From positions 55,800,001 to 55,864,000 of the forward strand of contig NC_087246.1 in NCBI RefSeq assembly GCF_037042905.1: a DNA stretch of 64,000 nt, given 5' to 3'. Shown here in pieces: positions 9,001 through 64,000 of this stretch (position 1 is its first letter; each line of letters opens with the position of its first letter). Source of the DNA: Lytechinus pictus (taxonomy: Eukaryota). Made by a program: the position numbers.

Positions 9001-12000
9001 ATGCTTGTTATGATCATGCCATCAGGATAAGAGTAGGATTCAAAAGTGTTGGATGAGGTCTGAATTGAAAAGCTGCAAAACGAGCAAAAAAAGTTTGGAA
9101 ATCTGAGTTTGGCCATTAATTTCTCCCAATTCCCAATTTTACACAATGCATAATTGATATCATTCACAAGATCATTTAATTCTTTTCAAAATGATACCAT
9201 GCTTGTTATGATCATGCCATCACAAAAAGAGCAGGATTCAAAAGTGTTGGATGAGGTCTGAATTGAAAAGCTGCAAAACGAGCAGAAATAGTCATGAAGG
9301 GTCAATACAGAACATGATTCTTTTGTCTGTGTCAAGAGATGAAAATCCATTCAAATCAAGCCCCTGCTTCTTCATTTTTTATGTTTTGTTGTGGTTTATG
9401 TAGGGATGGTTCTGTGAGATAACATTGTTTTAGTCGTGGTTTGAAATACCCATGAATGTTTGTTTGTTATGTGTTTGCTCTGCAGAGGTGTGTTTGATTC
9501 CATGTTAATGTTGATGTTAAGGTGCATGAAAACAATTAAAAGAAACCACTGAGAAACTCACTCATCACAACAGAAAAAAGAACAGTGACTTTCAATATTG
9601 TGTCATTTTGCAACTTTTGAATTTTGACCTTGCCCCACATTTCAAGGCACTGCACCTTCATGTGAACCATAATCATATCATGTAGGGTATCATTTTAAAG
9701 AGAATTAAATGATCTATTCATTTATATTATTTACACATTGATATTTACTAAAACCGAGGAGGGATGATCAATCAAAGTCAGATTTCCAAACTTTTTTTGA
9801 GGAGTTTAGTTTCCACTAAACTAGTTTTGGGAAGGTAGTGAGAACAGTGTCTTTGGGACATTGTGCGAAGTGAAAACTTTAGTCTTCAAGGATAATTTCA
9901 TTCTCTTAGTGATCTTAACAAAGATGGTGTTGACTGTATTTATTATATCCATGTGATATGTTTGTTGTATTCACAATTCAGATGTGATTTGGTATCATTG
10001 ATGGCAGCGAAGGGGAGTATCTACATGTAGGGTCTACACATACGGTGTAGTTGTACAAGTATAATTCACCCCCAGAAATGTACAAGATAGCACTCGTAGT
10101 ATTTTGGTTGCCAAATGAATTAATATGAGGGGATTCAACATTTAGTTTGGATTGAAAAGAAGGAAAGAGAATGCCTGACAGAAATAATAATTTCTTTCCC
10201 ACCAATGAAAGCTGAAAGCAGAGCACTTCAATTCCTCAATCAGAGGAAAACTTTCACTTTAAGGGTTCAGGTAACAGTAACATTCATGGAGGTGTCATAA
10301 AACTGAGCATCTATATTCCATCTATTCAATTTTGAACAAAAGAAAAGCATATACCCCTTGTCAATAATTGGACACAAGTGCATAAACCACATCTAGCAAA
10401 ATATGCCTGTAAATTGAGTGTCAGTAATTTGTCCCTTTTTGTCACTAAAAGTGACAATTTGATTCTGCAACAGACGCTTGTTAACTCAGAGTAATGCAGC
10501 TACTTCTTGAACTCTTTTGACATCAAAAGAAAAAGTTAGAATTCACCCAGACAAGACTTATTCCACTCCTTAATAACGATATGGTTCACATCATCAGTGC
10601 CAATGCTTTAGACTTGCTTCCAATTATACAACTTGACAGCGACATTTTTTTTCACCCTTTCCTTTTCTTTTTCTCTTGTTCTCAGTGGGGATGATATGTA
10701 CAGTTTTTATTATCAAAAGGAAACCTCTGCAATAGGCAGATTCCCTCAAAGTGTGTTGCAGATAATTAATTTGACAGAATCCTCTGAAAGAAACATATTG
10801 TTTCATTCCACTTCACACCATTTAAATGAAAATCAGAGTGCTATGCACTTGGTTTTGATAAAGTGAAAAGTGTTGACATTCTACATGTAACATGAGACTT
10901 CCTGAAATGTTAAAGAGTACATTACAGTTTTAATGCAGATAAGAGTTTTAGTCAAAATGGTCCTAATCAAATAAAGGAAATAAATACAAGTGGTATCTAT
11001 GTAAACCAATAAACCAATTACTTCAAACATACAGATCTAATTTTGATTAAACATCATCACGATATAACAAACCCTGGATCAGGGAAAAAATTACACGAGG
11101 ACTGAGGGCGATATAAACCCAAAAATGCTCAAACGAGCCCTGGAAACTAACAAAATAAAAGGAGCACTAGAATCCGCATTCACTGCAACGTTAAAGCTTA
11201 TCCAATGTTGCACATTTAGGCAGTAAATTGTAAAACGTAGCCTCAAAAATAAGAAAATTAATTCTTTGCCTACCCTTCATACATAATTTATCTTTCCAGG
11301 AGACGGGGGGTCATATAGATGTTTATCTGAAATGCAACAAAAGGGAACATTCTATTTTGGGCCAATGATTCAATAATTGATAGAGTATGAAAAAAAAATG
11401 AAATTTGAAAAGAAGAAAATTATGAGATAAATTACCTTTTCTGTCTTGACTGTTGCCACTTCATTGATGAAATCTTTGAATTTCTGTCTATTCAGAACTG
11501 AAAGATAATACATAAAATAAAAAATTATATGTTGTGTTGAGTTAGCTGGAATACACAATCTGCATTTCAAAATATGGTTTTGCTACCAAAGAAAGATTCA
11601 TGCGTGCATTTCTTTAACATGTTCATTCCAGTAAATATTTGAATGGATGGCAATGATGAGGATGATAATGATCAAAATAATAATGATAAATATAACAAAG
11701 ATATAAACTAAAATATTATAAATGTATCTTCCACTGTTCTTTAAATTCTGAATCTATTATTTTTTAATGTAAGAGTATTCATTTCAAGCTCACAACATAT
11801 TTATACCTGTAGGTATATCTATATATGAAAGACATATGTGAAAATAATGCAAAGATGGTAATAAGCCAGTTCGTAGTTCCACTCTGCGCATGATCAGAAG
11901 ATGCTGCGCATGATCAGAGGAAGGTTATTTGTACTAAAGTGACATGGTGGTTTAAAAATTTAATGAGATAAGCACCATCTTTGATGTCTTGATCATTCAT

Positions 12001-62200: not shown

Positions 62201-64000
62201 GGCTTCTCACGAATGTACGAAGTGAAAATTTCCATATTATAATTCCACGTGATTCCTATTGAATAACACCGTTTAAATTCCATAATTATATCAAATCTAT
62301 TTCAGATACATAGGGGGAAGATGGATGTTGACTTATTAAGATTGTCATCTCATTTCATATTAAAGCTTATTTAATTTTCAACAATAAAAAAGTATAATGT
62401 CATATCATGACATGATTATCACCATGATCAAGTAAACTTATATTCTCTTTAGCCCTTTGCGCGCTGATGTTGCAATTTTGCACATTCGAACAATTGAATT
62501 TAACAATAAAAATTGTAATAATTAAATTTCTCATCTACATATATATTTAATAGAAGCTTAAAAATGACAATAGTTCTTGGATAACATCTATATAATAATC
62601 ATAAGTATCAATGGTGCAATGTGGAAATCTTGAATTAAAGAAAATAACATGAAAACAATGGTCATTATTATACCCCAAAATTAATTCAGAATGCAAAGAG
62701 TTAATATATACATTAAAAGTGAAACATAGCAGGGTTCTGACCAGCACGATCATGACAAATTTTTTTGTAACTTAAAAAAATATATTTTTCTTTAATGATT
62801 CCCAATAAAGTCCGTAATACGTATAAAAAATAACGTATAACTTGATATATTATTTACATGCAATGAAGACAGTTGTGAAACAAAAAAGACAAGGTTTTAA
62901 ACTTACGAATTTGACAGGATGTCGCTATTCAAGCCATTACATAAACGATCAGAATAAAGAGTAACTTTATGAGATCGACAAATGTTTGCCCCAAAAGTTT
63001 TACGGATGCTACGTGTTGTTTTTATTTTCTAACCTATATTGATATCAATAATAGAATCTCGAACTATGAAGTTCGGGGAATTCTCTTGATATGGACTTAC
63101 ACGTCATACAATATGCCCCTGACGACCAACATCTAAAGGTGTATCTCAAAATATTATTGTCCTCTGGAAAAACAAACAAGTAGTTGAAACGTAACGAAAC
63201 TAAATTACTTGATTTCACGATAAGTTTAATCTTCTGTCAGAATTAGTTTATAGTTCCGAATAGACTGCTGCACCCTTTTGATGACCTTTAATTCTTTCTT
63301 TGATCGCTTCGATATGAATACACTACTGGATTATAAAATTAATCGTTTTGTTCACAGCGTTGTTTGTATCTTAGAGGAAAAATGCCGATTTAAACGAATA
63401 ACGACGTAAATCGATTTAGGATTTCCGTTTTCGATTATGTGCTTTTTAATGTAATTGAAAACCCAAGGTAAAATTCTGTTCGGCCAAATAATGTTGATTA
63501 AATAGGATAGTTTAATTTCGAACAAAATCTAAATGAGATAATTCAACGTTTAAGAAACATATTAACGGGAAAGGAAATATAGGATTTTATCTGTATTGGA
63601 ATGTTACAATGATGAACTCAAGAAATGAACAATACCGACTATTATGTTTTTTTTCTCAGTAAGATTAATCTGTGTCATGTATTCGTATTTTTTTATGTCA
63701 AGAATACTGGAGCCGGTTTAGGAATTAAGAGCGGTATACGTCTTACAAGACACTGAAAACCAAAGTTATAGGAACCTAAAATCTGTATTTACACGACCCA
63801 AGAGATCTCCCACCAATTACAATAGAAATCGAGAAAGTTGTTTACATCAATATTGCATCGCTCGATCTACTCTCAATAAAGTAAATCTTATTTAAATCAC
63901 TTTTATTTCAATGTAACTTTCCTTTACATGCTATTTGTTGGCTATGGATAGGAGACGTTTGGCATGAGGCGAAAGGATTGATAAATTCATTAGGGAAAAG

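What the first reader, a model, noticed from the sequence alone, without database searches (positions are those of the whole stretch)
11436..64000. Probable part of the ancient Irx-Sowah genomic regulatory block
Seen: a Sowah gene with small exons, a 10-kb intron 1 and an intron 2 apparently longer than 11 kb, plus ~42 kb upstream with no recognisable CDS but many unique motif-rich blocks. Established: Sowah is the bystander gene linked to Iroquois genes across bilaterians, with Irx enhancers in and around it (Maeso et al. 2012, Genome Research). Inference: an Irx gene lies nearby and this desert is its cis-regulatory landscape. No Irx homeobox exon is visible in this window.
[Added by the scan's program, not by the reader: the finding's places include an assembly gap (unread letters, written N; its length is only estimated) at 51860 to 51998. 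Whether the letters on both sides are continuous or in frame is not known: test that first.]
Basis: partly seen in the sequence, partly recalled or inferred. Interest (0 to 1): 0.65.

Follow-up and report, generated by a model that had tools for sequence, protein, structure and literature searches.

The report
Sea-urchin Sowah gene start, gene-free upstream
The window holds the first two small exons and long introns of a sea-urchin Sowah gene, preceded by at least 42 kb with no recognisable gene; this fits the published Iroquois-Sowah block, but no Iroquois gene is in the window and its presence nearby could not be tested.

Summary
The anatomy is real. On the minus strand, exon 1 (21650..21521) and exon 2 (11497..11436) match residues 1-43 (42 of 43) and 44-64 (21 of 21) of Lytechinus variegatus SOWAHB-like. 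Both have canonical splice sites. Intron 1 is 10,023 bp. Intron 2 exceeds 11,435 bp, because exon 3 is not in the window.

The 42.35 kb upstream shows no coding signal:
- 376 ORFs of 50 aa or more gave only three chance-level Pfam hits.
- No homeodomain motif occurs in any frame.
- Rfam and tRNA scans found nothing.
- Two long upstream ORFs have no relatives.

The N gap lies 30.2 kb upstream of the ATG, in simple sequence, and touches no coding feature.

The Irx inference could not be tested. There is no flank, no eukaryote genome collection and no admissible Irx query. The papers I could read support the linkage across bilaterians in general, but none states the sea-urchin arrangement.

One new observation: CpG observed/expected is 0.55 in the Sowah body against 0.86 upstream.

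This is a sea urchin, not human. It is an ordinary instance of a known gene and a published idea, so interest is low.

The parts
21521..21650 (-). Sowah exon 1, coding part (ATG at 21650; 43 codons plus 1 base; phase-1 donor)
   Evidence: Sequence read. 42 of 43 residues are identical to L. variegatus SOWAHB-like and 39 of 43 to S. purpuratus SOWAHA. GT donor at 21520-21519.
11498..21520 (-). Sowah intron 1, 10,023 bp
   Evidence: Bounded by the donor and the acceptor. No Pfam hit among its ORFs. CpG o/e 0.58.
11436..11497 (-). Sowah exon 2, 62 nt (residues 44-64)
   Evidence: Sequence read. 21 of 21 residues are identical to L. variegatus. AG acceptor at 11499-11498, GT donor at 11435-11434.
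1..11435 (-). Sowah intron 2, partial (runs off the window; longer than 11,435 bp)
   Evidence: No match to residues 65 onward of 8 sea-urchin SOWAH proteins beyond chance. CpG o/e 0.53.
21651..64000 (.). Upstream DNA with no recognisable gene, 42,350 bp; CpG little depleted
   Evidence: Pfam on ORFs of 50 aa or more gave chance-level hits only. No homeodomain motif. No Rfam family or tRNA. ORFs 37938-38348(-) and 44096-44518(+) have no relatives. CpG o/e 0.86.
51860..51998 (.). Assembly gap (139 N) inside the upstream region
   Evidence: It is flanked by simple sequence, no frame is open across it, and it lies 30,210 bp from the Sowah ATG.

Best explanation
The window is from a camarodont sea urchin close to Lytechinus. 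It is not human. It contains the 5' part of the single-copy, intron-bearing Sowah orthologue, transcribed leftward.

Shown here:
- Two very small coding exons encode the start of the N-terminal WHD_SOWAH domain.
- They are separated by a 10-kb intron and followed by an intron longer than 11.4 kb.
- The gene is preceded by at least 42 kb with no recognisable gene.
- The transcribed part carries the sequence signature of germline CpG methylation decay. The upstream DNA does not.

Inferred, not shown:
- This is one arm of the published Iroquois-Sowah genomic regulatory block.
- The single sea-urchin Irx gene (irxA) lies beyond the right edge of the window, more than 42 kb upstream of Sowah. It may be head-to-head with Sowah, as ara is with sowah in Drosophila.
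- Enhancers that act on the Irx promoter sit in the intergenic DNA and in the long Sowah introns.
- Breaking the pair would cut Irx from its enhancers, which would keep the two genes together.

My confidence that the gene is Sowah, with the structure given, is about 0.97. The confidence figure below is for the Irx-block reading.
For: Sowah identity and structure.

No other gene detected in 64 kb.

[quoted passage not shown] There, deficiencies place the 5' end of sowah next to the 5' end of ara (PMC12311624, passages).

Linkage as a general rule:
- PMC2674049, abstract, passages and section 9: linked in most bilaterians except vertebrates, with Sowah 5' of or inside the Irx cluster.
- PMC5803294, PMC5585340 and PMC8767184.

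Echinoderms:
- They are said to retain conserved microsynteny.
- Median TAD size in S. purpuratus is 200 kb, so a 64-kb stretch fits inside one domain.
- Irx is among the genes associated with accessible elements conserved across phyla (PMC13317027, passages).
- S. purpuratus has a single Irx gene (PMC2674049). It is a developmental regulator acting downstream of BMP2/4 and tbx2/3 (PMC3009687, passages).

CpG o/e is 0.86 upstream and 0.55 in the gene body. This fits an unmethylated intergenic domain beside a transcribed, methylated bystander gene.
Against: - No Irx sequence is in the window. There is no homeobox family among 376 ORFs, no WFxNxR in any frame, and no match to two P. lividus irxA oligos.
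- The linkage has been lost in several lineages (PMC3342872), and I saw no statement of the sea-urchin arrangement.
- Conservation of the non-coding DNA, the defining property of such a block, was not measured at all.
- An intergenic stretch of 42 kb is not exceptional for a sea-urchin genome. I recall roughly one gene per 30-35 kb, from no call.
- High CpG o/e upstream is what any unmethylated intergenic DNA would show.
- The BMP-response and CTCF consensus scans found 0 sites, with 0.19 and 0.35 expected by chance. They are uninformative either way.
Confidence: 0.6

Rival explanations
1. Ordinary locus. The gene is Sowah, but in this lineage it is no longer beside Irx, or the two are too far apart to share a landscape. 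The long introns and the 42 kb upstream are then ordinary non-coding DNA or Sowah's own regulatory DNA.
For: No Irx in 64 kb. The linkage was disrupted in several lineages (PMC3342872). No conservation data are available. The CpG contrast is expected at any transcribed gene in a mosaic-methylated invertebrate genome (the expectation is from general knowledge).
Against: The linkage is the rule among non-vertebrate bilaterians, and echinoderms are described as conservative in microsynteny. Introns of 10 kb and more than 11.4 kb around exons of 130 and 62 nt are far above the mean sea-urchin intron, which I recall as under 1 kb.
Confidence: 0.3
2. The upstream stretch is not gene-free. It holds a gene that these tools cannot see: small exons under 50 codons, a lineage-restricted protein, a long non-coding RNA, or an alternative first exon of Sowah.
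For: Only ORFs of 50 aa or more were screened: 376 of the 382 found, after dropping 6 that hold X. The two Sowah exons themselves get no Pfam hit, which shows how blind that screen is to short exons. No transcript data were available.
Against: No Pfam, Rfam or tRNA signal. Two of the longest upstream ORFs have no relative, one among 1.84 billion representatives and one in the word-based search. Long-ORF counts for the whole window fit order-2 and order-3 Markov nulls.
Confidence: 0.1
3. The join at the assembly gap is wrong, so the distal 12 kb (51999-64000) does not belong next to Sowah.
For: A 139-N gap is flanked by simple sequence. Continuity cannot be checked from the window.
Against: There is no duplicated or overlapping sequence at the edges. 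GC and CpG o/e show no lasting shift across the gap. Even if the join is wrong, 30 kb of gene-free DNA upstream of Sowah remains.
Confidence: 0.05

Closest known systems
Iroquois-Sowah genomic regulatory block (Maeso et al. 2012, Genome Res 22:642). The paper is not held; I know it only through citing papers and recall.
   Same: An intron-bearing Sowah gene with long introns and a long gene-free flank on its 5' side, in a non-vertebrate deuterostome.
   Different: Its defining elements were not shown here: an Irx gene linked to Sowah, and Irx-specific enhancers or conserved non-coding elements inside and around Sowah. No Irx exon lies in the window.
Annotated sea-urchin SOWAH genes: L. variegatus 'SOWAHB-like' (P0001, P0002) and S. 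purpuratus 'SOWAHA' (P0004)
   Same: Residues 1-64 are encoded by the window's two exons at 63 of 64 identity to L. variegatus.
   Different: There is one substitution, Q for P at residue 40, and Diadema also has Q there. The window is therefore another species or allele. Its own protein was not found in the database. Residues 65 onward lie outside the window.
Drosophila sosondowah (sowah, CG10632) beside araucan and caupolican
   Same: A Sowah orthologue with large introns. In the fly those introns hold Iro-C enhancers, and the 5' end of sowah faces ara (PMC12311624).
   Different: In the fly the enhancers and the neighbouring Irx genes are shown by genetics. Here neither is shown.

Membership tests
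SOWAH protein family (WHD_SOWAH N-terminal domain plus C-terminal ankyrin repeats) | N-terminal WHD_SOWAH domain (PF25877) | tested here: inconclusive
   Each exon alone gives no Pfam hit. The Pfam copy at hand also gives no such hit to full-length sea-urchin SOWAH proteins, so that test is blind. Indirect support is strong: exons 1 and 2 equal residues 1-64 of proteins that carry PF25877 in the database's precomputed column. P0004's nearest Atlas clusters are 100% WHD_SOWAH.
SOWAH protein family (WHD_SOWAH N-terminal domain plus C-terminal ankyrin repeats) | C-terminal ankyrin repeats | not testable with these tools
   That part of the gene lies beyond the left edge of the window. No Ank family was found among the window's ORFs. 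The sea-urchin isoforms retrieved end before the repeats.
SOWAH protein family (WHD_SOWAH N-terminal domain plus C-terminal ankyrin repeats) | Orthology to annotated SOWAH of close relatives | tested here: met
   42 of 43 and 21 of 21 residues are identical to L. variegatus SOWAHB-like, and 39 of 43 in exon 1 to S. purpuratus SOWAHA.
Iroquois-Sowah genomic regulatory block | An Irx (TALE homeobox) gene physically linked to Sowah | tested here: inconclusive
   Irx is absent from the 64-kb window. Beyond the window it is not testable: no flank, no eukaryote genome collection, and no admissible Irx query.
Iroquois-Sowah genomic regulatory block | Ancestral multi-exon Sowah with long introns, not the intronless retrogene form of tetrapods | tested here: met
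   Two exons with canonical splice sites, an intron of 10,023 bp and one longer than 11,435 bp.
Iroquois-Sowah genomic regulatory block | Conserved non-coding elements or Irx-specific enhancers within and around Sowah | not testable with these tools
   No echinoderm genomes, ATAC-seq or contact data are reachable. Two consensus scans (BMP-response element, CTCF) gave 0 sites against 0.19 and 0.35 expected.
Gene desert flanking a developmental regulator | Long stretch without genes | tested here: met
   42,350 bp with no Pfam, Rfam or tRNA signal, and no relatives for the two ORFs searched. The limit is that exons under 50 codons and non-coding RNAs outside Rfam would be missed.

The most novel reading that the evidence does not exclude
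In this urchin the Irx landscape may be partitioned by methylation state. The CpG-rich DNA upstream of Sowah, presumably unmethylated in the germline, would carry most Irx enhancers. The Sowah introns show CpG decay typical of a methylated, transcribed gene body, so they would carry few. That would differ from Drosophila and from the ancestral vertebrate state, where Irx enhancers populate the Sowah introns. It would give a simple sequence read-out (CpG o/e) of where the target gene's landscape ends and the bystander's body begins.
Probability: 0.15. Interest if true: 0.45.

Novelty: already known. Interest (0 to 1): 0.22.

Why it matters
If Irx does sit next door, this is one more instance, in a camarodont sea urchin, of a gene pair kept together for about 600 million years by shared regulatory DNA. 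Sea urchins allow quick reporter assays, and irxA has a well-mapped role in dorsal ectoderm patterning (PMC3009687). The locus could therefore serve to test bystander-gene logic outside flies and vertebrates. On the evidence in hand it adds nothing new. The gene is annotated in close relatives and the block was published in 2012.

Tried and rejected
- Pfam on each exon alone gave 0 families at E <= 10. I rejected this as evidence, because the same library gives no SOWAH hit to full-length sea-urchin SOWAH proteins.
I replaced it with stop-free ORFs of 50 aa or more.
- The three Pfam hits among 376 ORFs were OTT_1508_deam (E 0.0038), DUF2066 (E 0.0019) and BESS (E 0.0064). About 3.8 hits are expected by chance at E <= 0.01 per query, so I rejected them.
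- A word-based search from residues 1-100 of P0004 reached only sea urchins: 7 proteins of 42 candidates. I therefore could not build a cross-phylum SOWAH profile.
- The apparent excess of long ORFs was 23 ORFs of 100 aa or more against 7.6 +/- 2.8 in single-base shuffles. It disappears under order-2 and order-3 Markov nulls, which give about 17 +/- 4.
- ORF 37938-38348(-) had 4 candidates, none at E <= 0.001.
- ORF 44096-44518(+) had 0 hits among 1.84 billion representatives.
- The BMP-response element and CTCF consensus patterns, both recalled from memory, gave 0 sites.
- The two P. lividus irxA morpholino sequences from PMC3009687 gave 0 matches at up to 3 mismatches. This is a weak test across species.
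- The Rfam and tRNA scans were empty.
- Papers: Maeso 2012 and Maeso 2013 are not held.
- Seven literature searches found no held paper that gives the sea-urchin Irx-Sowah arrangement in the titles, abstract openings and passages I read.
- The listing of cluster members could not be run because the database was switched off.
- The Atlas does not hold exon 1.
- No structure or complex prediction was run. None would bear on the question.
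Full report
**Source and gap.** The window is 64,000 bases at 36% G+C, with one run of 139 N at 51860-51998. It comes from a sea urchin, as shown below, and is not human. I tested the gap first, as asked.
- It lies between a C/A-rich simple run on the left and a TA-rich run on the right.
- The 3-kb flanks share no significant similarity (best E 0.09 over 14-19 bases).
- At most 64 stop-free codons abut either edge, on either strand.
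- The gap is 30,210 bp upstream of the only start codon identified.

Whether the two sides are truly adjacent cannot be known from the window. No reading frame or exon depends on it.

**The Sowah exons.** On the minus strand, the open frame 21767..21474 contains its first ATG at 21650. The coding sequence runs to 21521 and is followed by GTAATT. That is 130 nt, or 43 codons plus one base.

A second small exon lies at 11497..11436. It is preceded by a pyrimidine tract and CAG, and followed by GTAATT. It is 62 nt long. Together with the carried-over base this gives 21 codons, ending in phase 0.

The joined two-exon sequence was never translated as one, searched or folded.
- Exon 1 alone, searched against longer proteins, found 8 proteins with E <= 10 among 9 candidates.
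- These were L. variegatus 'SOWAHB-like' isoforms (98% identity, E 1.4e-17), S. purpuratus 'SOWAHA' (91%), four Diadema antillarum proteins (81%) and one unnamed 77-aa protein (91%).
- All carry PF25877 in the database's precomputed column.
- Local tblastn of these 8 proteins against the window placed exon 1 on residues 1-43 (42 of 43 identical to L. variegatus).
- It placed exon 2 on residues 44-64 (21 of 21 identical).
- Every other hit was at chance level, with E from 0.3 to 10.

Exon 3 begins at residue 65 and is highly conserved from Diadema to Strongylocentrotus. It is not in 1..11435. Intron 1 is therefore 10,023 bp, and intron 2 exceeds 11,435 bp.

The single difference from L. variegatus is Q for P at residue 40. 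The window's own protein is absent from the database. Both points indicate a close relative of L. variegatus or another allele.

**Profile evidence.** Pfam gave no family for either exon, even at E <= 10. The same library also gave no SOWAH family for the full-length proteins P0002, P0004 and P0008. At E <= 10 it returned only chance-level DnaA_N, DUF4734 and Tmemb_cc2 hits. The Atlas names PF25877 as WHD_SOWAH under Pfam 38.1, so the Pfam copy at hand evidently lacks it. The exon-level negative therefore carries no weight.

The Atlas places P0004 among clusters that are 100% WHD_SOWAH (score 0.95, 210 of 256 shared features). A fourth cluster carries both WHD_SOWAH and ankyrin repeats (score 0.84, a lead only).

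A word-based search from residues 1-100 of P0004 reached only sea urchins: 7 proteins of 42 candidates. I therefore could not build a cross-phylum profile of my own.

**Is anything else encoded?** I collected all 382 stop-to-stop ORFs of 50 aa or more in six frames. I dropped the 6 that contain X from the gap, and passed the remaining 376 to Pfam in three batches.
- There were three hits at E <= 0.01: OTT_1508_deam (0.0038), DUF2066 (0.0019) and BESS (0.0064).
- About 3.8 such hits are expected by chance for 376 queries.
- No homeobox, ankyrin, reverse transcriptase or transposase family appeared.
- The homeodomain recognition-helix pattern WFxNxR occurs in none of the 7,100 six-frame segments.
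- Rfam at gathering thresholds and ARAGORN found nothing.
- ORF 37938-38348(-), 137 aa, had no relative in the word-based search.
- ORF 44096-44518(+), 141 aa, had none among 1.84 billion representatives.

An apparent excess of long ORFs turned out to be compositional. There were 23 ORFs of 100 aa or more, against 7.6 +/- 2.8 in single-base shuffles. Order-2 and order-3 Markov nulls give about 17 +/- 4.

The limits of this screen should be stated. Exons under 50 codons are invisible to it, as the two Sowah exons show. So are non-coding RNAs outside Rfam.

**Repeats and composition.** Self-comparison shows that 6,642 bases have another copy inside the window. That is 9.5% of the upstream region, 12.4% of intron 1 and 11.9% of the part of intron 2 in the window. 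'Unique' holds within the window, but genome-wide repeat content could not be measured. The repeat families are listed under things noticed in passing.

One pattern is worth recording. CpG observed/expected is 0.553 across the Sowah body (1-21520), with TpG+CpA at 1.234. Upstream (21651-64000) the figures are 0.862 and 1.106. GpC is near 1 in both. The step falls at the promoter, where the 20-22 kb bin reads 0.93.

This is the signature expected when a transcribed gene body is methylated in the germline and the neighbouring DNA is not. That reading is inference from general knowledge of invertebrate mosaic methylation.

**The Irx inference.** Two published P. lividus irxA oligos also fail to match. 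That is a weak test across species.

Whether Irx lies beyond the window could not be tested, for three reasons:
- The flank is not available.
- The only genome collection offered holds bacteria and archaea.
- No Irx protein could be used as a query without typing it from memory.

Maeso et al. 2012 is not held. I know it only through papers that cite it and from recall. My recollection is that linkage was found in nearly all bilaterians studied.

What I could read:
- Kerner et al. [quoted passage not shown] Sowah lies 5' of or within the cluster, and S. purpuratus has a single Irx gene. Their per-species table is a supplement, which is closed.
- PMC5585340, PMC5803294 and PMC8767184 restate the conservation.
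- PMC3342872 says the association was disrupted in several lineages.
- In Drosophila the large sowah introns hold ara and caup enhancers, and the deficiency map puts the 5' end of sowah next to the 5' end of ara (PMC12311624, passages).
- A 2026 echinoderm study (PMC13317027, passages) reports median TADs of 200 kb in S. purpuratus and conserved microsynteny. It lists Irx among genes associated with accessible elements conserved across phyla. Its tables are closed.

Seven literature searches turned up no held paper that gives the sea-urchin arrangement in the titles, abstract openings and passages I read.

**Verdict.** The gene is Sowah, with about 0.97 confidence, and it has the ancestral intron-rich form with unusually long introns.

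The reading as part of the Irx-Sowah block is plausible, at about 0.6. Under that reading Irx would lie more than 42 kb upstream, beyond coordinate 64000, perhaps head-to-head as in the fly. This rests on a literature prior and not on anything in this sequence. Conservation, chromatin contacts and the Irx gene itself all remain unchecked.

The main rival is an ordinary Sowah locus whose link to Irx has been lost or stretched, at about 0.3. Unseen small-exon or non-coding genes upstream, at about 0.1, are compatible with either reading.

Nothing here is new in kind. The gene is annotated in close relatives and the block has been in print since 2012. The CpG step is a small addition that could be tested. 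Interest is low.

Noticed in passing
window 1-21520 versus 21651-64000: CpG observed/expected steps from 0.55 in the Sowah introns (TpG+CpA 1.23) to 0.86 upstream (TpG+CpA 1.11), with the change at the promoter. GpC is near 1 in both. This fits germline methylation of the transcribed body only.
   Followed up: partly
window 8472-8879 and 14584-14986: A dispersed repeat of about 410 bp is present once in intron 2 and once in intron 1, at 88.5% identity and in the same orientation. No Pfam family was found in its ORFs.
   Followed up: partly
window 8887-9292, with inverted relatives at 9603-9812: A 198-bp unit is repeated 2.1 times in tandem (91% matches) directly after the 410-bp repeat. Two weaker inverted copies (about 71-74%) lie a few hundred bases away.
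   Followed up: no
window 44705-44948 and 45069-45308; relatives at 29905-30238, 39905-40100 and 40320-40441: An inverted pair of about 240-bp arms (81% identity) lies about 120 bp apart, with related pieces at three other upstream sites. It looks like a small non-autonomous mobile element family.
   Followed up: no
window 29409-29768, with relatives at 28233-28788: A CpG-rich 111-bp unit is repeated 3.2 times in tandem (83% matches), with diverged copies about 1 kb upstream. This explains the CpG o/e peak of 1.19 in the 28-30 kb bin.
   Followed up: no
window 55251-55561: An array of an 11-bp unit (CACAGTGTGTT) has 28.7 copies at 77% matches.
   Followed up: no
window 21521-21650, residue 40: The only difference from L. 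variegatus SOWAHB-like in 64 residues is Q for P at residue 40. Diadema also has Q there, while S. purpuratus and the unnamed P0003 have P.
   Followed up: no
tool library, not the window: The Pfam copy used by search_protein_families returns no WHD_SOWAH (PF25877) hit for full-length sea-urchin SOWAH proteins, although those proteins carry it in the database's precomputed column. Negatives for this family from that tool are therefore meaningless.
   Followed up: yes
window 14001-16400: This is the G+C-richest stretch of the window (42.7% in 14001-16000). It holds four ORFs of 97-138 aa on both strands, inside intron 1, and partly overlaps the 410-bp repeat. No family hit was found.
   Followed up: partly
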